Shown: positions 13,063 to 47,612 of the stretch, piece by piece | Layout: each line of letters begins with the position of its first letter | How positions within the stretch are numbered: position 1 is the stretch's first letter | Origin: an uncultured Planctomycetaceae bacterium | GTDB taxonomy: Bacteria; Planctomycetota; UBA1135; GCA-002686595 | DNA length: 64,000 nt | Assembly: GCA_964619265.1 (NCBI GenBank) | Contig: CAZUCE010000017.1 | Coordinates: 1 to 64,000, forward strand | Reading direction: 5' to 3' | Notes under the pieces: generated by a model | What the model saw: the letters and a program-made list of their open reading frames with translations, nothing else | Databases searched by the model: none | What the model was told of the DNA's origin: nothing | Position numbers and translations under genes: made by a program

Positions 13063-13108
13063 TTGGGGGTCTTCGAGAGACCCTGCTCCGCCCCTCTACC
13101 CTTCATCC

Positions 13109-15847
13109 GTGGCCAAGAAATCCTCCTCCGGCACAACCCTCGTGATCGTCGAGTCGCCGACCAAGGCCAAGACGATCAAGAGCTTCCTGCCATCCGGCTT
13201 CGTCGTCGAGGCGAGCGTGGGGCACGTACGCGACCTACCGACCTCGGCCAAGGAGATCCCGGCCAAGGTCAAGGGTGAGAAATGGTCGCGCCTTGGGATC
13301 GACATCGAGAACGACTTCGCTCCGCTGTACGTGGTGCCCGAGGCGAAGAAGAAGCAAGTCAAGAAGCTGAAGGAACAGCTGGCCAAAGCCGACGTCGTCT
13401 ACCTCGCGACGGATGAAGACCGCGAAGGGGAGTCGATTTCGTGGCACTTGGTCGAGGTCCTGAAGCCCAAGGTTCCGATCAAGCGCCTGGTCTTTCACGA
13501 GATCACGAAAGCCGCGATTCACGAAGCGCTGGATAGTCCGCGCGACATGGATCAGGGCTTGATCCGCGCCCAGGAAACGCGCCGCATCCTGGATCGCCTC
13601 TACGGCTACGAGCTGTCGCCAATTCTGTGGCGCAAGATTGGCCCCGGGCTCTCCGCAGGGCGAGTCCAGTCGGTGTCCGTGAAGCTCATCGTGGAGCGTG
13701 AGCGCGAACGTCAGCGATTCGTTCGTTCGGTCTACTGGGACTTGGAAGGGTCGTTCTCGCCGGCCGCCAAGCCGGGGTCTCCGCGCGTCGACGCGAAGAT
13801 GATCGAGTTGGACGGCAAGCGGCTGGCCATCGGCAAGGACTTCGATTCAGCAACCGGCAAGCTGATCGGCGACAAGGTGTTGTTGCTCGGCGAAGAGCGC
13901 GCGAAGGAACTTGAAACCACCTTGCGCAAGGCCGACTTCAAGGTTCAGTCCGTCGAGCGCAAGCCCTATACGGACAAGCCCGCGCCGCCGTTCACGACCA
14001 GTACGCTTCAGCAGGAGGCCAACCGCAAGCTGCGCCTATCGGCGCGCGCCACGATGCAAGCGGCGCAGCGGCTGTACGAAAACGGTTTCATCACCTACAT
14101 GCGAACGGACTCGACCACGCTGTCGACCCAAGCTGTGGACAGTGCCCGGAAGATGATTGGCGAGCTGTACGGGAAGGAGTTCTTACCCGACGCGCCGCGA
14201 ACCTACCGCACCAAGGTCAAGAACGCTCAGGAAGCGCACGAAGCGATTCGCCCGTCCGGCGAGTTTGTTCAACCCGCCGATGTCAAGGCGCGCGTTGGCA
14301 TCGATGAAGCGCGCGTCTACGAGCTGATCTGGAAGCGAACGATGGCCTGTCAGATGGCTGATGCCCGCGGCTCGCGGGTCCAGCTTCGCGTCGAAGGCGA
14401 GGGCGCCGTGTTCCAAGCCTCGGGCAAGACGATCGAGTTCCCCGGCTACCTACGCGCCTATGTGGAAGGCGCTGATGACCCGGACGCCGAACTGGCCGAC
14501 AAGGAGACGATCCTCCCGGACGTAGCCGAGGGCGAGTCGATGAAGCTCGAGGACTTGGTCCCCAAAGAGCACGTAACCCAGCCGCCCGCGCGCTTCACCG
14601 AAGCCTCGCTGGTCAAGGAACTCGAGACCAACGGGGTGGGGCGTCCCAGCACCTACGCGATGATCATCGAGACGATTCTTCGTCGCGAGTACGTGACGAA
14701 GGAGCGCAATGCTCTGGTGCCGACGTTCATGGCCTTCGCCGTGGTGGGGCTGCTCGAACGATTCTTCGGGCACCTGATCGACGTGTCGTTTACGGCGCGA
14801 ATGGAGAACGATCTGGACCGCATCTCGCTCGGGCAGCTCGAATCGTTGCCCTATCTGAGGCATTTTTACTTCGGCGAAGGCGAAGACCTGGATGAGGACA
14901 GCAAGAAGGGCCTGAAAGACTTGCTCGGCGCCGAGATCGACCCGCGTGACGTCTGCACGCTCCCGCTCGGTCAAGACGAGGACGGCCAACAGATCAACAT
15001 CCGCATCGGTCGCTACGGCCCTTACCTCGAACGGGGGGAAGAGCGCGCGTCGATCCCTGATGGCACGGCGCCCGACGAGCTGGATCTAGCGAAGGGCATC
15101 GAGCTGTTAGCGCGCGGATCCGGGCCGACCGAACTCGGCGAAGATCCTGGCAGCGGCAAGCAGGTCTATCTGAAGTCAGGCCGCTTCGGTCCTTATGTGC
15201 AGCTCGGCGAGAACGGCGAAGAGCCGAAGATGAAGTCGTTGTTGCCCGGCATGTCCCCGGACGACGTGAAGCTCGAGGATGCGCTCAAGCTGCTGGCCTT
15301 GCCGCGCGAGGTGGGGATCGACCCGAAATCCGCCGACCCGGTGCTAGCCGACTTCGGTCGCTACGGGCCGTACCTCAAGTGTGGCGTGGAGACGCGTAGC
15401 CTCGAGTCGCCCGAGCAGGTCTTTGACGTCGATTTGGAAAAGGCGCTCGAGATCCTGGCTCAGCCCAAGAAAGGCGGGTTCCGGCGCGCGGCTCCCAAGA
15501 CCCTCAAGGAGCTGGGCAACAACCCCTCCGGCGAACCCGTGAAGTTGCTCGACGGTCGCTATGGGCCGTACGTGACCGACGGGACGACCAACGCTTCGCT
15601 GCCGAAGGGTTCGGATCCGGAGGACTTGACGCTGGAGGTCGCGCTCGGATTGCTCGAAGAGCGAGCCAAGCGGGGCCCGAAGAAGAAGAAAAAGAAGGCG
15701 GCCAAGAAGAAGGCAGCCAAGAAGGCAGCCAAAAAGGCCACCAAGAAAGCGACGAAGAAGACGGCCAAGAAGACCTCCAAGAAGGTCGCGAAGAAGGTCG
15801 CGAAGAAGACTGCCAAGGCCGAAGCCGACGAGTCCGAGGAGAGCTGA
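13109..15847 (+). CDS. topA: DNA topoisomerase I with lysine-rich C-terminal tail
   Basis: GTG start. TOPRIM/Toprim-topoIA motifs (VIVESPTKAKTI, LYELIWKR..). Repeated C-terminal domains and a terminal KKKKKKAAKKKAAKKAAKK tail with no zinc fingers. Confidence 0.95.
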   Translation: MAKKSSSGTTLVIVESPTKAKTIKSFLPSGFVVEASVGHVRDLPTSAKEIPAKVKGEKWSRLGIDIENDFAPLYVVPEAKKKQVKKLKEQLAKADVVYLATDEDREGESISWHLVEVLKPKVPIKRLVFHEITKAAIHEALDSPRDMDQGLIRAQETRRILDRLYGYELSPILWRKIGPGLSAGRVQSVSVKLIVERERERQRFVRSVYWDLEGSFSPAAKPGSPRVDAKMIELDGKRLAIGKDFDSATGKLIGDKVLLLGEERAKELETTLRKADFKVQSVERKPYTDKPAPPFTTSTLQQEANRKLRLSARATMQAAQRLYENGFITYMRTDSTTLSTQAVDSARKMIGELYGKEFLPDAPRTYRTKVKNAQEAHEAIRPSGEFVQPADVKARVGIDEARVYELIWKRTMACQMADARGSRVQLRVEGEGAVFQASGKTIEFPGYLRAYVEGADDPDAELADKETILPDVAEGESMKLEDLVPKEHVTQPPARFTEASLVKELETNGVGRPSTYAMIIETILRREYVTKERNALVPTFMAFAVVGLLERFFGHLIDVSFTARMENDLDRISLGQLESLPYLRHFYFGEGEDLDEDSKKGLKDLLGAEIDPRDVCTLPLGQDEDGQQINIRIGRYGPYLERGEERASIPDGTAPDELDLAKGIELLARGSGPTELGEDPGSGKQVYLKSGRFGPYVQLGENGEEPKMKSLLPGMSPDDVKLEDALKLLALPREVGIDPKSADPVLADFGRYGPYLKCGVETRSLESPEQVFDVDLEKALEILAQPKKGGFRRAAPKTLKELGNNPSGEPVKLLDGRYGPYVTDGTTNASLPKGSDPEDLTLEVALGLLEERAKRGPKKKKKKAAKKKAAKKAAKKATKKATKKTAKKTSKKVAKKVAKKTAKAEADESEES

Positions 15848-15995
15848 CCCCCGGGGTGGCCAGGGGAGGCTCCGGCGGACGTCTAGGGACCGCTAGCCCC
15901 GGGCATCCGGGGGCCTTTCCGAGTAGACTGTTCGGCCCGCTGCTCGGAATCGTCCGGCTGCCTCCCCGTTTCTGTCGCTCCCGAACCGCCTCCCC

Positions 15996-17051
15996 ATGGA
16001 CATCTCGGACATCCCCGTCGAAGGCTATGAGAAAGTCGCGCGCTGCCGCGACGAAGCCTCCGGTCTGCACGCCCTGATCGCCGTCCACGATACGACGCTC
16101 GGACCGGCCCTGGGAGGGATGCGAATGCTGCCTTACGCCTCCGAGGATGAGGCGCTCTTCGACGTCAAGCGACTGTCCCGCGGCATGACTTACAAGTCGG
16201 CCGTGGCCCGCACGGGCTTGGGTGGTGGAAAGTCGGTCATCCTTGGCGATCCCAAGCAGCTCAAGTCGCCGACTCTGTTTCAGGCCATGGGCCGCTTCGT
16301 GGAGAGCCTGGGGGGCAAGTACATCACCGCCGAGGACATGAACATCGGCATCGCAGATCTCGAGGAGGTCGCGAAGGAAACCAAGCATGTCACCGGTCTC
16401 TCCCGCGAGTCCGGCTCTTCGGGGAATCCGAGCCCCTACACGGCCCGCGGTGTGGTCGAGGGAATTCGCGCCACGCTGGAAGAGGCCTTCGGGACCGACA
16501 CTTTCCAGGACCGCTCGATCCTGATCCAGGGCGTCGGCGCCGTAGGCGGCGCGATGGCGGTCATGCTCAAGGAGCGCGGAGCCAAAATCCTGGTTTGTGA
16601 CATCAACGAAAAGCGCGCCCGCAGCTTGGCCGACGAGCACGGGTTCGAAGTCGTTCCCGACGCCGGACACCACAAGCTCGAAGTCGATGTCTACGCCCCC
16701 TGCGCCCGCGGGGCCGGCGTCAACGACGACACCGTCGGTGAACTTGGATGCCGCACCATTGCGGGCTGCGCCAACAACATCCTGCTCGAAGAACGCCACG
16801 GCTACGAGCTGAAGAAGCGCAACATTCTCTACGCCCCCGACTACGTCATCAACGCCGGCGGCATCATCAACGTCGGCGTCGAAGTTCGCCCGTCCGGCTA
16901 CGACGAGAAGATCGCCCTGGGCCTGGTCGACGGCATCTACGACAGCCTGAAAGAGGTCTTCCAGATCGCCCGCGAGCAAGATCTGCCGACCCACGAAGCC
17001 GCGGACCGTCTGGCCGAGAAGATCCTGGCCGACGCGCAGAGCAACGGCTGA
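15996..17051 (+). CDS. leucine/valine (Glu/Leu/Phe/Val family) dehydrogenase
   Basis: GGGKSVI active-site lysine motif, and a GVGAVGGAMA Rossmann motif. 351 aa. Confidence 0.85.
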   Translation: MDISDIPVEGYEKVARCRDEASGLHALIAVHDTTLGPALGGMRMLPYASEDEALFDVKRLSRGMTYKSAVARTGLGGGKSVILGDPKQLKSPTLFQAMGRFVESLGGKYITAEDMNIGIADLEEVAKETKHVTGLSRESGSSGNPSPYTARGVVEGIRATLEEAFGTDTFQDRSILIQGVGAVGGAMAVMLKERGAKILVCDINEKRARSLADEHGFEVVPDAGHHKLEVDVYAPCARGAGVNDDTVGELGCRTIAGCANNILLEERHGYELKKRNILYAPDYVINAGGIINVGVEVRPSGYDEKIALGLVDGIYDSLKEVFQIAREQDLPTHEAADRLAEKILADAQSNG

Positions 17052-17437
17052 CTCCCGAGAAAAAAATACAGGAGTCAGCGGCCGCGGAAGGCGAGCGTTC
17101 GCAGCGGACGAAACTTCTGTTCGTCTGCAGCCGCAATCTGTGGCGCAGCCCGGCCGCCGAGCAGCTGTTCCGAAATCGCTCCGGGTTCGAAGCGCGCTCG
17201 GCCGGAACCAGCGCGAGCGCCAAGCGCCGCGTTTCCCACCGCGACGTGGCCTGGGCGGACTGGATCTTGGTCATGGAGCCCAAACATCGGCGGCAGCTCG
17301 AACAGAGATTCGGCCGGGAAAATCTGCCGGGAATTCGGGTGCTCGATGTGCCCGACGACTACGTCGCGATGGATCCCGAACTGATCGAGCTCCTAGAAGG
17401 CCGGATGGAGGCTCTGCTAGAGGATCTGAGCGACTAA
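17048..17437 (+). CDS. low-molecular-weight protein tyrosine phosphatase (CX5R P-loop: LLFVCSRNLWRSP) lacking a canonical start codon
   Basis: Clear LMW-PTP/ArsC-like fold motifs in frame 2. No ATG/GTG/TTG is in frame between the LeuDH stop and the P-loop. Candidate initiators are CTG 17048 (CTGA overlap with the LeuDH stop) or AUA 17066. The 5-prime boundary is unresolved. Confidence 0.55.
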   Translation: MTPEKKIQESAAAEGERSQRTKLLFVCSRNLWRSPAAEQLFRNRSGFEARSAGTSASAKRRVSHRDVAWADWILVMEPKHRRQLEQRFGRENLPGIRVLDVPDDYVAMDPELIELLEGRMEALLEDLSD

Positions 17438-17692
17438 TTCCCCGGCAGACCAACCCCATCGGCACCGATTCGAAGACCAGAATTCGCTGGCTGCCGAGGG
17501 TGGAGGCTCGTTTGTGCCCTTGGGTTTGGCCTTGCTAGGAACCCAGATCGATCGGGTTTCTCCGTGGAGTACGCGACCGACGCGGTCGAGATTCGGCTTG
17601 CGCGCTGACGTCTCGGCCCCTGCTCCGGGTGCGGTGGTTGGCAGCCGGGCACCGCGCTCGGGGAGTCTTCGGGCTGTAGGGCGCTTGAGGAT

Positions 17693-18658
17693 CTAGAGGG
17701 CGGCCTCGAATTGGTCGACGACCTCGCGCACGGACAGAACCTTGTGGATGCCCGCGACGCTCTTGCCCGCTTGCCAGACGTCCTTGTTGCCAAGGCCCTT
17801 TTGGGAGGAGCGCTTGAGGGAGCGTAGGGCTTTGACGGTGTAAAAGGTGCGCATCCAGTGCTTCGTCTTTGAGTTGCGCAGGAGCCAGGCTCCGAGGCCG
17901 CTGGCGTTCGGGCCGAGGCGGTCGATCTCGGGCGTGCGGATGACGGCGCAGGGAACGCCAGAGAGCTTGTTGGTGAGGACGATGTCCTGTTCGTCCGCTT
18001 CGACGATGGCCTTGCGGTACTCGGGGTGGACTTGGCATTCCTCGGTGGCGATGAACCGCGTGCCGGCCTGGACTCCGTCGTAGCCGAGGGCGAGGCGCCC
18101 GGCGAAGGTCTCGGGGTCACCGACGCCGCCGGCGCTGACCAGGGGAACGCCGAGGGGCTGTAGTTCTTCGAACAGGTCGCGGGGGGACTTGGCTCCGGCG
18201 TGTCCGCCGGCGTGGGAGTTGACGCAGATCAGGCCGTCGACGCCCTCGGCCAGGGCCTTTTCAGCCCACTTTCGCTCGGTGACGTCGTGGTAGACGATGC
18301 CGCCTTGATCGTGAACCGCATCGACGACCCAACGCGGATTTCCGAGCGCGGTGACAAAGAAGCGAACGCCTTCTTCGAGGGCGATAGCGACCCACTCCCG
18401 CATGCGGCGCTCGTAGCTCTTGGCGCTTTTTTCGACGATCGCATTGAACCCAATGGGAGCCCCGGCCGACTCGAGGATCGAGCGCAGCGCCTCGCGCAGG
18501 TCGTTTCCGTGCACGTAGATCAGCGACAGAGGCTGGACGATGCCGAGGGCTCCGGCTGCGCTGGCGGCGGCGACCAGTTCGGCGTTGCTGCACGGGTACA
18601 TGGCGCCGCAGATCAGGGGCACCCGGCAGCCGGCGTGTTCGGTGAAGCGCGTCTTCAA
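17693..18658 (-). CDS. nitronate monooxygenase / 2-nitropropane dioxygenase family (FabK-like FMN enzyme)
   Basis: KTRFTEHAGCRVPLICGAM..ELVAAASAAGALG N-terminus, and a GGHAGAKSPRDL FMN motif. Proposed TTG start (revcomp 18656-18658) overlapping the upstream stop as TTGA. The ORF-track N-terminus is an artefact. Confidence 0.75.
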   Translation of the reverse strand: MKTRFTEHAGCRVPLICGAMYPCSNAELVAAASAAGALGIVQPLSLIYVHGNDLREALRSILESAGAPIGFNAIVEKSAKSYERRMREWVAIALEEGVRFFVTALGNPRWVVDAVHDQGGIVYHDVTERKWAEKALAEGVDGLICVNSHAGGHAGAKSPRDLFEELQPLGVPLVSAGGVGDPETFAGRLALGYDGVQAGTRFIATEECQVHPEYRKAIVEADEQDIVLTNKLSGVPCAVIRTPEIDRLGPNASGLGAWLLRNSKTKHWMRTFYTVKALRSLKRSSQKGLGNKDVWQAGKSVAGIHKVLSVREVVDQFEAAL

Positions 18659-19155
18659 GGCTTGGCGGGGGCGATGGGGCCGATGCGCCAGTCGACCGTT
18701 ACGCGACAGACGAGGGTTCCGGAGGCGTCGGTGATGTTGGAGAGGACTTGGACGTCTCGCTCGTTCGAGTCTTGGGGCGGTTCGCAGCTGCATTCCGCGA
18801 GCAGGGTTCCGCGCGCCTTGGCGAGGTACTCGGCCGAAAGCGAGACGACGATTCCACGCGCGTCCGCGGGGAGCCCGGAGAGCATGGCGAGGCCGGAGCT
18901 CAACTCGCCCACGTTGACGAGGGCGACCGCGTGGATCGAGCGCAGGTGGTTGCGCACGCGCTTGCGATCTTCGAGGCGAATGCGCGCGTAGCCGGGTCGC
19001 AGCTCTTCGATGCGGGGCGAGACGCTGCCCGAATAGGGCACGAACTTGCCGATCAGCTTCGAGAACAGGAACTTGCCGCCGGGCTTGGCCGACAGCTGAT
19101 TCCACTTGGCGATCAGCTGCGCCGGACCGTTTGGTGTGGTTTGGGAAGCACTCAT
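18655..19155 (-). CDS. DUF4442 hotdog-fold (thioesterase-like) protein
   Basis: AKPGGKFLFSKLIGKFVPYSGSV ... NHLRSIHAVAL signature. ATG (revcomp 19153-19155) preceded by GAGGGGAG. Confidence 0.8.
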   Translation of the reverse strand: MSASQTTPNGPAQLIAKWNQLSAKPGGKFLFSKLIGKFVPYSGSVSPRIEELRPGYARIRLEDRKRVRNHLRSIHAVALVNVGELSSGLAMLSGLPADARGIVVSLSAEYLAKARGTLLAECSCEPPQDSNERDVQVLSNITDASGTLVCRVTVDWRIGPIAPAKP

Positions 19156-19213
19156 GACTCCCCTCAGCATGCCAGGCTGGAGGCCTGGCTCTCCGCTGGT
19201 TGTTCCTCGATCG

Positions 19214-20140
19214 TTACTGCTTGCGCAGGAACGAGACGAAGTCGGCCTCGAGCTCGGGCAGGCCGTAGTCCGGCACGGTGAGGCAGCGGTACACGATCTG
19301 CGCCAGCGGCTCGGGGGTGTTCGGGTTGAGCTCGCGCGGCGGCGGGTAGGAGAGGAAGTAGGAGAGCGACAGGCGCTCGATCTCTCCGCCCTGTTCACGG
19401 CCGGCGTAGCGCCACGGCACTTCGTCAAAGGGCAGCGTGCCGGTGAGGATCTCGTACAGCATCACGCCGATGCCCATGACGTCGGCCTTGGGCGAGCGCA
19501 GCAACAGCGGGTTGTAGTGCGGCGTGGTCGAGATCAGCTGTCGGCCAGACTGGCGCATAGCCGGGTCGATCATGACCACCGATCCTGACGGCTTGACCAG
19601 GATGTTCTCGGGCTTGAGATCGCCGTGATAGCCCATCGGGCTGTTCTTCTCGAGCCGCTGCAGGGCGCGTACCAACGAGAGGAACCAGTTGAGCCGGATG
19701 CCTTCCAACGCGCGGATCTTCTCGCGCAGGGTCTTGCCGCGGACGAAGTCCATCACCAGGATCGGGCGACCCTCATGTTCGACCACCTCGCGCAAACGGA
19801 CCAAATTCTGGCTCTTGGTCTGGGAGAGCAACTCGCCCTCGGAGCGCAGTAGCTCGTCGATCTCGATGACGTCGAGGAAGTCGACGCGAATGCCGTCGTT
19901 GCGGAAGAAGATGGCTTCGCCCGGCGTCTCGTCGGGGCTGAGCCAATCGGGTGAGCGGTGGCTTGTGACTTCGAGGCAGCGCGTGATGTAGCGGCCGCCT
20001 CCGGCCAGGTCCCCGATTTTCAGAGCGACTTTTTGGCCCTTCGCGTCTTCGGCTTGGTAGACGCAGGCGAAGCCCCCGCGGGCCAAGAATTCCACGATGC
20101 GGTAAGTGCCGATGGTCTCGCCAGTTTCGAGCCGGATCAT
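19214..20140 (-). CDS. small atypical Ser/Thr protein kinase-like protein (HGD catalytic loop, DPA in place of DFG)
   Basis: ATG revcomp 20138-20140. Gly-rich loop LARGGFACVY, VALKI lysine, HGDLKPENILV; degenerate DFG/APE. 308 aa with no TM. Confidence 0.7.
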   Translation of the reverse strand: MIRLETGETIGTYRIVEFLARGGFACVYQAEDAKGQKVALKIGDLAGGGRYITRCLEVTSHRSPDWLSPDETPGEAIFFRNDGIRVDFLDVIEIDELLRSEGELLSQTKSQNLVRLREVVEHEGRPILVMDFVRGKTLREKIRALEGIRLNWFLSLVRALQRLEKNSPMGYHGDLKPENILVKPSGSVVMIDPAMRQSGRQLISTTPHYNPLLLRSPKADVMGIGVMLYEILTGTLPFDEVPWRYAGREQGGEIERLSLSYFLSYPPPRELNPNTPEPLAQIVYRCLTVPDYGLPELEADFVSFLRKQ

Positions 20141-37582: not shown

Positions 37583-37685
37583 ACCGCTCCCCGGTGCTGC
37601 TTCCCATCGGAAGCCCCTCTGGGCCTGGGCGAGCCGCCGGCGGAAGGAGTTTTCGGAGGTCTCGCGCCGATAGGATCCCTCTCCC

Positions 37686-46903: not shown

Positions 46904-47601
46904 AAGCGGGTCAAGCCCAAGTCGTCAACGAAACCAGCGAGTTCGAAAGAGCCGCCGTCGATTTCGCCGAAAAAGCCCTGAGCGAAGCTCTCGCCGAACG
47001 AGGCACGGCTTCGGTCGCCCTCGCCGGGGGGGGCACGCCACGTGGCATGCATCGCCTGTGGGCCACGAGTTCGAAGCTCGCCTGGGGCGAGATCGATCTG
47101 TTCTTTGGGGATGAACGCTGCGTTCCGCCCGACGACGAACAGTCGAACTACCGCGCTGTGCTCGAAGACTTCCTCTCGGCGTTGCCGCTGCCAGGTCCAC
47201 GGGTTCACCGGATTCGGGGCGAGGAGACCGATCATCAGCGCGCCGCGAGGCGTTATGCGGCCGAACTCCCCGATCGTCTGGACCTACTGATTCTGGGCGT
47301 TGGGCCCGATGGGCATACCGCTTCGATCTTCCCGGGCGATGCGGCGGTCCTAGCCCAAACCCAGGCCCGGGCGTTTGCGGTCGAAGCCCCGAAGCCGCCG
47401 GCCGAGCGAATCACGATCACGCCTCCGGTGTTGGTCGGCGCTCGCAAGATTCTCGTGCTCGCCCGCGGCGAAGACAAAGCTCAGGCGATCTTCGAGGCGC
47501 GCCATGGTCTTTGGGATCCGTTGGTCACTCCCGCGCAACTCGCCCGGCGCGGTACCTTCCTCCTCGACGCGGCTGCGGCCCGTCTTGAGCCTTCCGCCTG
47601 A
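46900..47601 (+). CDS. pgl: 6-phosphogluconolactonase
   Basis: LAGGGTP and GVGPDGHTASIFPG motifs. GTG 46900 overlaps the zwf stop (GTGA); the ORF-track TTG at 46882 is the alternative. Confidence 0.85.
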
Positions 47602-47612
47602 CTCCCTCTCTC

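What the first reader, a model, noticed from the sequence alone, without database searches (positions are those of the whole stretch)
17048..17437. LMW protein tyrosine phosphatase gene with no canonical start codon, next to an A7 homopolymer
The CX5R P-loop phosphatase (KLLFVCSRNLWRSP...) is clearly coding. However, between the LeuDH stop (17049-17051) and the P-loop there is no in-frame ATG, GTG or TTG. The only options are CUG 17048 (which would form a CTGA overlap like the other coupled junctions here) or AUA 17066. A run of seven A (17060-17066) sits just upstream, unusual in a 68% GC genome. It could be a homopolymer indel or assembly error, a phase-variable or slippage site, or a recent pseudogenisation.
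Basis: seen in the sequence. Interest (0 to 1): 0.5.

Follow-up and report, generated by a model that had tools for sequence, protein, structure and literature searches.

The report
Acquired phosphatase gene lacking start codon
A small, recently acquired tyrosine-phosphatase-like gene really does lack any normal start codon, in five independent assemblies, so it is most likely a freshly silenced gene, or at best one translated at trace level from a rare start codon; the run of seven A's does not explain it.

Summary
An intact 109-codon LMW-PTP-like ORF (17108-17437, P-loop CSRNLWRS) follows the LeuDH-type gene. No ATG, GTG or TTG occurs in any frame from 16759 to 17140.

Five independent metagenome assemblies are 100% identical here, so this is not an assembly error. 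Changing the A7 run by one base cannot create a start in any frame.

No orthologue exists. A sister species (about 82% nucleotide identity) and six other relatives lack the gene at this locus, so it looks like a lineage-specific acquisition.

In homologues the Met codon lies 2-7 codons (once 15) before the LLFVCS strand. The window has ACG, CGG, CAG, TCG, CGT and GAG at those positions.

The protein is barely decayed. Its family HMM score is at the 20th percentile, and it has one private change at an otherwise invariant Thr. Codon adaptation is below that of neighbouring genes, and the leader shows no coding signal.

A perfect 9-bp hairpin (17047-17079) holds the LeuDH UGA and CUG17048 in one arm, AGGAG in the other, and A7/AUA17066 in its loop.

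Best reading (about 0.5): the start codon was lost in a young accessory gene that is now silent or trace-translated. Main rival (about 0.33): LeuDH-coupled initiation on CUG, AUA or ACG. Interest is low to moderate.

The parts
15996..17051 (+).
   Evidence: Pfam ELFV_dehydrog_N and ELFV_dehydrog. 81% identical to Rohdeia mirabilis Pla163 and 92% to the sister species L099.
17047..17079 (+). Hairpin HP1. Perfect 9-bp stem GCUGACUCC / GGAGUCAGC with a 15-nt A-rich loop. The 5' arm contains the LeuDH UGA and CUG 17048. The 3' arm contains AGGAG. The loop holds A7 and AUA 17066.
   Evidence: the repeat finder I5. dG -16.6 kcal/mol, z -4.75 against shuffles. However, 6% of random 39-nt windows in this GC-rich sequence fold as well, and HP1 is unlike the window's real terminators.
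17048..17050 (+). In-frame CTG overlapping the LeuDH stop (CTGA); a candidate reinitiation codon
   Evidence: Its upstream context scores at the 32nd percentile of the host start-context matrix.
17060..17066 (+). A7 homopolymer, in the HP1 loop. In the LeuDH frame it reads A_AAA_AAA, but it lies 3 codons after the stop.
   Evidence: Identical in 5 assemblies.
17066..17068 (+). In-frame ATA near-cognate codon, exposed in the HP1 loop
   Evidence: Context percentile 12.
17071..17075 (+). AGGAG, Shine-Dalgarno-like. The host does not visibly use SD, so this may be a remnant of the donor's ribosome-binding site.
   Evidence: AGGAG occurs 140 times in the window and is not linked to starts. Host starts have a C-rich context.
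17084..17086 (+). In-frame GCG, 8 nt after AGGAG. It has the best host-like start context in the leader. It may be a former GTG (inference only).
   Evidence: Context score at the 88th percentile. The spacing is read from the sequence.
17093..17110 (+). Codons GAG CGT TCG CAG CGG ACG, 7 to 2 codons before the LLF motif. These are the positions where eight of nine homologues have their start. CAG aligns with the ATG of L107 (MRTKLLF), CGG with the ATG of L108 (MTKLLF), and ACG with the TTG or GTG of L086, L088 and L091.
17108..17437 (+). Conserved core of the short LMW-PTP-like protein (109 codons plus stop). P-loop C27-S-R-N-L-W-R33-S34 at 17126-17149.
   Evidence: Pfam PF01451. Homologues up to 60% identical and 107-118 aa long. 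AF2 model with beta1 at residues 21-27 and pLDDT 87.6. Foldseek top hits are LMW-PTPs. HMM score 154.7 against a family mean of 163.5 +/- 11.
17273..17437 (+). The 54-aa fragment that gene callers annotate in public assemblies, starting at the internal ATG for Met76
   Evidence: Gene tables of L001-L003. P0121 is its only database entry.
17438..17692 (.). 255-nt spacer between the convergent PTP and NMO genes. It contains a roughly 14-bp hairpin at about 17624-17662 that may be a bidirectional terminator.
   Evidence: The sister species has only 73 nt between LeuDH and NMO.
17693..18658 (-). NMO (nitronate monooxygenase family) gene, convergent with PTP. It starts with TTG in a TTGA overlap with DUF4442.

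Best explanation
The ORF is a genuine short LMW-PTP-family gene. This species appears to have acquired it on its own, as a single promoter-less gene placed directly behind the LeuDH-type gene. It no longer has a usable canonical initiation codon.

Shown:
- The lack of a start is real and fixed in the sampled population.
- The A7 run is irrelevant to it.
- The gene is absent from the same locus in all sampled relatives.
- The positions where homologues carry their Met codon are occupied by non-start codons.

Inferred:
- The start was lost after acquisition by point mutation. One candidate is GTG to GCG at 17084, which lies 8 nt behind the AGGAG. Another is ATG to ACG at 17108.
- Alternatively, the start was clipped at the recombination junction.
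- The gene is probably still transcribed with LeuDH, because no terminator separates them.
- It is now untranslated, or translated only at about the 1% level through near-cognate codons.
- In short, it is a very young pseudogene that has not yet accumulated further lesions.
For: - No ATG, GTG or TTG in any frame from 16759 to 17140.
- Five independent assemblies are identical across the junction.
- The sister species (L099-L101), Rohdeia mirabilis (L006), L007, L008 and L102-L105 all lack the gene at this locus.
- No close orthologue was found in the 5.8-billion-protein search or in the genome and metagenome scans. The best identity is 60%.
- In homologues the start lies 2-7 codons (once 15) before LLF. 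The window has GAG, CGT, TCG, CAG, CGG and ACG at those positions.
- None of the four near-cognates sits in the host's C-rich start context. They score at the 12th to 52nd percentile.
- The leader 17048-17107 has no coding signal in any frame. The PTP core has lower codon adaptation (0.24-0.29) than neighbouring genes (0.39-0.55) and GC3 of 0.77 against 0.82-0.88.
- There is one private substitution (Thr to Ala) at a residue invariant in 99 homologues.
- In E. coli, near-cognates give only 0.02-3% of AUG activity (bioRxiv 10.1101/063800).
Against: - The ORF has no other lesion.
- The sequence matches all 24 columns that are invariant in the 36-sequence alignment and 30 of 31 columns conserved at 90% or more. 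Its HMM score is within the family range. A non-functional gene must therefore be very young.
- Losing a start homologous to the MRTK or MTK type would need two substitutions.
- The single-step routes (17084, 17108, 17066) are conjecture, because there is no orthologue to test them.
- The perfect hairpin spanning the LeuDH stop is not explained by simple decay. Nor are the in-frame CUGA overlap and the 381-nt start-free zone.
- The family itself often uses weak TTG or GTG starts, so low initiation may be tolerated.
Confidence: 0.5

Rival explanations
1. The gene is functional and is translated from a non-canonical start, coupled to LeuDH translation. A ribosome terminating at UGA 17049-51 melts hairpin HP1. 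It then reinitiates one base back on CUG 17048 (CUGA overlap), 15 nt downstream on AUA 17066 in the A-rich loop, or on ACG 17108. The result is deliberately low phosphatase levels.
For: - The ORF is intact and well conserved. The AF2 model gives a complete LMW-PTP fold from residue 21.
- CTG is in frame with no intervening stop.
- HP1 places the LeuDH stop and CUG in one arm and AUA in the loop. This fits the RNA-unfolding and reinitiation models of coupling (review PMC12548453).
- In this clade the coupled NMO start drifts between ATGA, GTGA and TTGA.
- The PTP family often uses weak starts (6 of 9 loci are GTG or TTG). The start often abuts or overlaps an upstream stop: TAGTTG, TAAATG, ATGA.
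- ACG 17108 aligns with the start codon of L086, L088 and L091.
- No terminator lies between LeuDH and PTP.
- The 381-nt start-free zone is the longest in the window.
Against: - No orthologue shows conservation of any of these codons.
- Near-cognates are 30 to 5000 times weaker than AUG in E. coli.
- Their contexts do not resemble host starts.
- The leader lacks any coding signal.
- HP1 is not exceptional in energy for this GC content: 6% of random windows fold as well.
- The start-free zone is only weakly significant once LeuDH homologues are used as the null. They have 0-8 NTG triplets in the same tail, and one of 18 has none.
- The gene is dispensable in all relatives.
Confidence: 0.33
2. 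Translation starts at the in-frame ATG 16748 inside LeuDH. This would give a 229-aa protein whose first 120 or so residues are read out of frame over the LeuDH 3' end.
For: the ORF listing gives ORF 16748-17437 with an ATG start. The frame is open throughout. No canonical start triplet follows for 381 nt.
Against: - The 300-nt same-strand overlap would be extraordinary.
- The extension is Arg/Pro-rich, as expected from off-frame reading of GC-rich DNA.
- The same frame is also open in Rohdeia, which has no PTP, so its openness is chance.
- Homologues are 107-118 aa long.
- Gene callers rejected this ORF in the public assemblies.
Confidence: 0.03
3. A sequencing or assembly error, or phase variation, at the A7 run hides a normal start.
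For: Homopolymers are classic sites of error and of phase variation. A7 is the longest A or T run in the window.
Against: - Five assemblies from different samples and assemblers are identical.
- No frame contains ATG, GTG or TTG on either side of the run, so A6 or A8 restores nothing.
- One A7 in 64 kb is the chance expectation (my estimate).
Confidence: 0.02
4. Recoding produces a fusion protein. UGA 17049 is read through (UGA-C context), followed by a -1 frameshift on A_AAA_AAA (17060-66). This joins LeuDH to the phosphatase.
For: In the LeuDH frame, A7 is a perfect X_XXY_YYZ heptamer, and a -1 shift enters the PTP frame. It is the only such heptamer in the stretch where the PTP frame is open.
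Against: - It needs two rare events in succession.
- The phase match has a 1 in 3 chance expectation.
- No stimulatory structure lies 5-9 nt downstream once HP1 is melted.
- No LeuDH-PTP fusion was seen among the 120 listed homologues.
Confidence: 0.02

Closest known systems
Young bacterial pseudogenes with a single lesion (start-codon loss) in recently acquired accessory genes
   Same: One disabling feature in an otherwise intact ORF. The gene is lineage-specific, less codon-adapted than its neighbours, and dispensable in relatives.
   Different: No functional orthologue or allele is available to prove the loss. An RNA hairpin and an in-frame CUGA overlap at the junction leave room for residual coupled translation.
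Genes with natural non-canonical initiation codons (for example E. coli infC and pcnB with AUU; from my own knowledge)
   Same: An intact conserved protein without ATG, GTG or TTG. Near-cognate codons (CUG, AUA, ACG) are available in frame.
   Different: In infC the unusual codon is conserved across species and is part of a known autoregulatory loop. Here no orthologue exists, so conservation cannot be shown. The codon contexts are also poor.
Translationally coupled gene pairs with 4-nt NTGA overlaps (termination-reinitiation; PMC6728339, PMC12548453)
   Same: The two genes are on the same strand, and the downstream frame overlaps the upstream TGA by 4 nt. An RNA structure covers the junction. 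The neighbouring DUF4442/NMO pair uses TTGA.
   Different: The overlapping codon is CTG, which is not a canonical start. It would add a 20-residue N-terminal extension that the structure model predicts with low confidence and that shows no coding signal. No homologue carries this extension sequence.
Short 'predicted protein tyrosine phosphatase' subfamily of LMW-PTPs (about 110 aa, CSRNQWRSPTAE motif; JGI label, possibly COG4551)
   Same: 58-60% identity to the best members, the same length core, the P-loop and the predicted fold.
   Different: Thr after RSP is invariant in 99 homologues but is Ala here. There is no start codon. The neighbouring genes differ from those in homologous loci.

Membership tests
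LMW-PTP superfamily (Pfam PF01451 LMWPc) | N-terminal P-loop C-X5-R-(S/T) directly after strand beta1 | tested here: met
   C27-S-R-N-L-W-R33-S34 at 17126-17149. These columns are invariant in the 36-sequence alignment.
LMW-PTP superfamily (Pfam PF01451 LMWPc) | Profile match above the curated threshold | tested here: met
   33.6 bits against a cut-off of 23.2. Only profile positions 2-52 of 144 are matched.
LMW-PTP superfamily (Pfam PF01451 LMWPc) | Four-stranded parallel alpha/beta fold | tested here: met
   AF2 model with pLDDT 87.6 and strands at 21-27, 47-53, 72-75 and 95-98. The listed Foldseek PDB hits are nearly all LMW-PTPs (Wzb, YfkJ, YwlE), plus two related arsenate reductases. TM-scores are 0.6-0.7 and probability 1.0. 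This rests on a predicted structure only.
LMW-PTP superfamily (Pfam PF01451 LMWPc) | General-acid Asp on the DP loop, and phosphatase activity | not testable with these tools
   Conserved D103 and D109 in PDDY..MDPEL are candidates.
Short ~110-aa 'predicted protein tyrosine phosphatase' subfamily | Motif LLFVCSRN(Q/L)WRSPTAE, with Thr invariant | tested here: not met
   The window has RSP-A-AE. Thr is invariant in 99 homologues. All other invariant columns are met.
Short ~110-aa 'predicted protein tyrosine phosphatase' subfamily | Canonical start 2-7 (rarely 15) codons before the LLF strand | tested here: not met
   Nine independent loci: ATG x3, GTG x3, TTG x3. The window has GAG, CGT, TCG, CAG, CGG and ACG at these positions.
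Genes with a conserved non-canonical initiator (infC-type) | The unusual codon is conserved in orthologues | not testable with these tools
   No orthologue was found in any collection.
NTGA-overlap translational coupling | The overlapping triplet is a canonical start (ATG, GTG or TTG) | tested here: not met
   The junction is CTGA. The neighbouring pair uses TTGA, and its orthologues use ATGA or GTGA.
Phase-variable homopolymer (contingency) locus | Tract length varies between isolates and switches the reading frame on or off | tested here: not met
   A7 is identical in 5 assemblies. A change of one base creates no start in any frame.
Programmed -1 ribosomal frameshift site | X_XXY_YYZ heptamer inside the upstream ORF, with a downstream stimulator | tested here: not met
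   The heptamer is in phase but lies 3 codons after the LeuDH stop. No suitable downstream structure is present.
Pseudogene | A disabling lesion plus signs of relaxed constraint | tested here: inconclusive
   Start loss is present. There are no frameshifts or stops. The HMM score is at the 20th percentile. One private change occurs at an invariant site, as in 3 of 99 homologues. Codon adaptation is lower than in neighbours. The population is clonal, so dN/dS cannot be measured.

The most novel reading that the evidence does not exclude
The phosphatase is a working gene in a planctomycete-like organism that does not use Shine-Dalgarno-led initiation. It is expressed only through LeuDH translation. 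The terminating ribosome opens hairpin HP1 and reinitiates on a non-canonical codon: CUG of the CUGA overlap, AUA in the A-rich loop, or ACG at the family's usual start position. The surrounding 381 nt are kept free of canonical start triplets so that nothing competes with this weak start.
Probability: 0.3. Interest if true: 0.5.

Novelty: new member of a known kind. Interest (0 to 1): 0.27.

Why it matters
The main value is for annotation. Public assemblies of this organism carry only a meaningless 54-aa fragment. The locus should be recorded either as a start-less, probable pseudogene copy of an LMW-PTP-family gene or as a candidate non-canonical start.

If the gene proved to be translated, it would be a natural example of coupled reinitiation on a near-cognate codon in a lineage without Shine-Dalgarno-type start signals. 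That is a modest but useful data point for gene callers and for understanding start selection outside model bacteria.

The case also shows that an eye-catching homopolymer next to an odd gene start can be irrelevant.

Tried and rejected
1. **A7 indel rescue.** I enumerated all frames and found no start triplet anywhere, and the LeuDH stop lies upstream of the run.
2. **Assembly artefact.** Five assemblies are identical.
3. **Orthologue comparison.**
   - The genome scan with LeuDH returned 80 loci with no PTP next to LeuDH.
   - The metagenome scan with PTP reached at most 57% identity.
   - A protein search with the 54-aa fragment found only itself.
   - A search with NMO found the sister species and others, none with PTP.
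4. **Conserved gene neighbourhood around the best PTP homologue.** P0001 has an unrelated context.
5. **AGGAG as a host ribosome-binding site.** The host shows no SD use.
6. **HP1 as the LeuDH terminator.** Real terminators in the window have 13-17 bp stems, 4-6 nt loops and -25 to -35 kcal/mol. HP1 is different.
7. **Known RNA family.** Rfam gives only sub-threshold miRNA-hairpin noise.
8. **Remnant of the ancestral terminator, or conserved intergenic DNA, at the junction.** blastn-short found nothing beyond chance.
9. **Repeat or mobile-element ends around the insert.** No other copy exists in the window.
10. **Integron-cassette-like attC core sites in the 3' flank.** None was seen by eye. 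This was not formally tested.
11. **Recombination tract in the LeuDH 3' end.** Divergence from the sister species is uniform.
12. **The 381-nt start-free zone as strong evidence of selection.** It is weakened by the empirical null from 18 LeuDH homologues.
13. **Compositional anomaly of the insert.** GC content is unremarkable.
Full report
**Observation**

An ELFV-type amino-acid dehydrogenase ('LeuDH', 15996-17051) ends with TGA at 17049-17051.

The next reading frame encodes a short LMW-PTP-like protein with P-loop C27-SRNLW-R33-S at 17126-17149 and a stop at 17435-17437. Pfam LMWPc matches at 33.6 bits against a cut-off of 23.2.

There is no ATG, GTG or TTG in any + strand frame between 16990 and 17135. 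The start-free stretch actually runs from 16759 to 17140.

In-frame near-cognates are CTG 17048 (CTGA overlap with the stop), ATA 17066, ACG 17108 and CTG 17117.

A7 (17060-17066) is the only A or T run of 7 or more in the window. From base frequencies I estimate about 0.5 such runs per 64 kb, so it is not statistically unusual. Window GC is 65.2%, not 68%.

The PTP frame is open upstream to an ATG at 16748, inside LeuDH.

**Not an artefact, and A7 is irrelevant**

The exact LeuDH protein is encoded on contigs from five different samples and assemblers (ENA x3, Logan x2).
- All five are 100% identical to the window over 17000-17140.
- They are 99.95-100% identical overall, with no difference inside the PTP region.

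No frame holds a start triplet on either side of A7, and the LeuDH stop precedes the run. Neither A6 nor A8 restores a start or fuses anything.

Gene callers in those assemblies annotate only a 54-aa fragment from the internal Met76 (17273-17437).

**What the protein is**

The closest of 206 homologues are 58-60% identical. Most are 107-118 aa long, and JGI labels them 'predicted protein tyrosine phosphatase'.

The window sequence keeps all 24 columns that are invariant in a 36-sequence alignment.
- An HMM built from half of the homologues scores it at 154.7 bits. The held-out half averages 163.5 +/- 11, which puts the window at the 20th percentile.
- It deviates at 1 of 31 columns conserved at 90% or more. 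That one change is Ala for a Thr (RSP-T-AE) that is invariant in 99 homologues. Only 3 of 99 homologues have a comparable private change.

AlphaFold2 gives a confident model (pLDDT 87.6). The fold begins with strand beta1 at residues 21-27 (T-K-L-L-F-V-C), and residues 1-20 have low confidence. Foldseek against the PDB returns almost only LMW-PTPs such as Wzb, YfkJ and YwlE, plus two related arsenate reductases.

A start at 17048, 17066 or 17108 would therefore give a complete domain. A start at CTG 17117 would truncate beta1.

**Where homologues start**

In nine independent homologous loci the nearest possible start lies 2-7 codons before the LLF motif, and 15 codons in one locus.
- The codons are ATG x3, GTG x3 and TTG x3.
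- TTG is the only possible canonical start in L088 and L091.
- The start abuts or overlaps the stop of an upstream ORF in L091 (TAGTTG), L107 (TAAATG) and L108 (ATGA).

Alignment with the window:
- L107: ATG CGG ACC AAG CTG ... (MRTKLLF)
- L108: ATG ACC AAA CTT CTG TTC ... (MTKLLF)
- Window: CAG CGG ACG AAA CTT CTG TTC

The window therefore has CAG, CGG and ACG where homologues have their initiator.
- ACG 17108 is one step from ATG and coincides with the start position two codons before LLF in L086, L088 and L091.
- CAG and CGG would each need two changes.

**Genomic history**

The organism belongs to the Saltatorellus/Rohdeia group of Planctomycetota. Its LeuDH is 81% identical to that of Rohdeia mirabilis Pla163 (clade described in bioRxiv 10.1101/817700).
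- In Rohdeia, LeuDH is followed after 125 bp, including a long hairpin, by the convergent Ser/Thr kinase gene.
- A search with the neighbouring NMO protein found a sister species (L099-L101). It is about 82% identical in nucleotides over topA-LeuDH, and its LeuDH is 92% identical in amino acids.
- In the sister species the order is kinase, NMO, then convergent LeuDH and topA. Only 73 nt separate the two stop codons, and there is no PTP.
- Other relatives (L102-L106, L007, L008) also lack it.
- No closer PTP exists in the protein database or in the genome and metagenome scans.

The PTP, together with the surrounding non-alignable spacer, is therefore most simply a gain specific to this species. 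Repeated loss in the relatives cannot be excluded.

GC content in the region is unremarkable. However, PTP codon adaptation (0.24-0.29) and GC3 (0.77) are below those of neighbouring genes (0.39-0.55 and 0.82-0.88). The 60-nt leader has no coding signal in any frame.

**Initiation signals**

The host does not appear to use Shine-Dalgarno sites.
- AGGAG occurs 140 times in the window without any link to starts.
- Confident starts are preceded by C-rich sequence. C occupies positions -1 and -2 in 15-16 of 19 starts.
- CTCCC is enriched 14-fold upstream of starts, although it is depleted window-wide.

A position matrix built from 14 unbiased starts scores the PTP candidates as follows:

| Codon | Percentile |
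|---|---|
| CTG 17048 | 32 |
| ATA 17066 | 12 |
| ACG 17108 | 21 |
| CTG 17117 | 52 |
| GCG 17084 | 88 |

GCG 17084 has the best context in the leader. It also lies 8 nt after the AGGAG at 17071-75. A former GTG at that position is a tidy single-transition scenario, but it is only an inference.

**RNA structure**

A perfect 9-bp inverted repeat (17047-17055 with 17071-17079) forms hairpin HP1, with dG -16.6 kcal/mol and z -4.75 against shuffles.
- The 5' arm contains the LeuDH UGA and CUG 17048.
- The 3' arm contains the AGGAG.
- The 15-nt loop contains A7 and AUA 17066.

HP1 is unlike the window's real terminators, which have 13-17 bp stems, tetra- to hexaloops and -25 to -35 kcal/mol. However, 6% of random 39-nt windows in this GC-rich DNA fold equally well.

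There is no terminator between LeuDH and PTP. A hairpin of about 14 bp sits at about 17624-17662, between PTP and the convergent NMO. Co-transcription with LeuDH is therefore likely, though inferred.

A second, imperfect hairpin (17101-17131) is at chance level. Rfam finds nothing.

**Weighing the explanations**

Start loss in a young accessory gene explains several things:
- the missing initiator at the homologous positions;
- the poor contexts of the near-cognates;
- the non-coding-like leader;
- the weaker codon adaptation;
- the private change at an invariant residue;
- the gene's dispensability in relatives.

This reading requires the loss to be recent, because nothing else in the ORF is broken. 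I give it about 0.5.

The main rival, at about 0.33, is real low-level expression coupled to LeuDH. The arguments for it are:
- The terminating ribosome would necessarily melt HP1. It could then reinitiate on CUG (one base back), AUA (15 nt ahead) or ACG.
- In this clade the coupled NMO start drifts between ATGA, GTGA and TTGA.
- The PTP family commonly uses weak starts that are tightly coupled to an upstream ORF.
- Both the RNA-unfolding and the reinitiation models of coupling are established (PMC12548453).

Against it, CUG and AUA give only 1-2% of AUG activity in E. coli (0.02-3% in other constructs), and other non-canonical codons give 0.1-1% or less (bioRxiv 10.1101/063800). No conservation can be shown either.

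Minor rivals are the 229-aa overlapping ORF from ATG 16748 (0.03), an A7 error or phase variation (0.02), and UGA readthrough followed by a -1 shift on A_AAA_AAA (0.02).

**Unexplained residue**

The 381-nt stretch without any canonical start triplet is the longest in the window on either strand. The next longest are 206 and 238 nt.

All six NTG triplets in the sister species' LeuDH tail are synonymously absent in the window. However, 18 GC-rich LeuDH homologues carry only 0-8 (mean 4.9) in the same tail, and one has none. The signal is therefore weak.

**Verdict**

This is an ordinary kind of feature: a start-less, probably silenced, horizontally acquired gene. A non-trivial but unproven alternative is coupled non-canonical initiation. 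Interest is low to moderate.

Noticed in passing
window-wide; examples 13087-13108, 15974-15995, 37664-37685, 47591-47612: Gene starts are not preceded by Shine-Dalgarno motifs. They are preceded by C-rich sequence, with C at positions -1 and -2 in 15-16 of 19 starts. 'CTCCC' is enriched 14-fold in the 25 nt upstream of starts, although it is depleted window-wide (182 observed against 256 +/- 14 expected).
   Followed up: partly
window 16759-17140: This is the longest stretch in the window (381 nt, either strand) without any ATG, GTG or TTG in any frame. All six such triplets in the sister species' LeuDH tail are removed in the window by synonymous differences. An empirical null from 18 LeuDH homologues (0-8 triplets, mean 4.9, one with 0) makes it only weakly significant.
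   Followed up: yes
window 18655-18658 (- strand); L102 5001-5004; L103 2071-2074: At the 4-nt overlap between DUF4442 and NMO, the NMO start codon differs between relatives: TTGA in the window, GTGA in L102 and ATGA in L103. Start-codon strength therefore drifts at a coupled junction.
   Followed up: partly
L086, L088, L090, L091, L092, L093, L098, L107, L108: In the short PTP family, 6 of 9 independent loci use GTG or TTG as the nearest possible start. The start often abuts or overlaps an upstream ORF's stop (TAGTTG, TAAATG, ATGA). Database entry P0031 (129 aa) probably carries a spurious N-terminal extension, because related loci L088 and L089 have an in-frame stop there.
   Followed up: partly
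window 17047-17079: The perfect 9-bp hairpin spans the boundary between conserved LeuDH sequence (GCTGA, also present in the sister species) and lineage-specific DNA. The 3' arm TCAGC is an inverted copy of the LeuDH end. Whether this reflects selection or the way the junction was formed is unknown.
   Followed up: partly
window 17693-19214 compared with L099, L006, L102, L103, L105: Gene content between the kinase and LeuDH varies in this clade. Rohdeia has neither NMO nor DUF4442 there. The sister species has NMO but no DUF4442. The window, L102 and L103 have both. L102 and L105 have extra genes between the kinase and DUF4442.
   Followed up: partly
window 17153-17155 (codon GCC, residue 36 counted from CTG 17048): Ala replaces a Thr that is invariant in 99 homologues, directly after the P-loop (RSP-T-AE). 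This could be a sign of relaxed constraint or a specificity change.
   Followed up: partly
window 15700-15847: Topoisomerase I ends in a long Lys/Ala-rich tail (KKKKKKAAKKKAAKKAAKK...). This causes a strong local AT skew and another long stretch free of start triplets (15650-15856).
   Followed up: no
window 16748-16750 compared with L099 and L006: The out-of-frame ATG inside LeuDH (GGA TGC, using a rare Gly codon) is TTG in the sister species (GGT TGT) and CTG in Rohdeia (CGC TGC). The -1 frame of the LeuDH tail is also open in Rohdeia, which lacks the PTP.
   Followed up: yes
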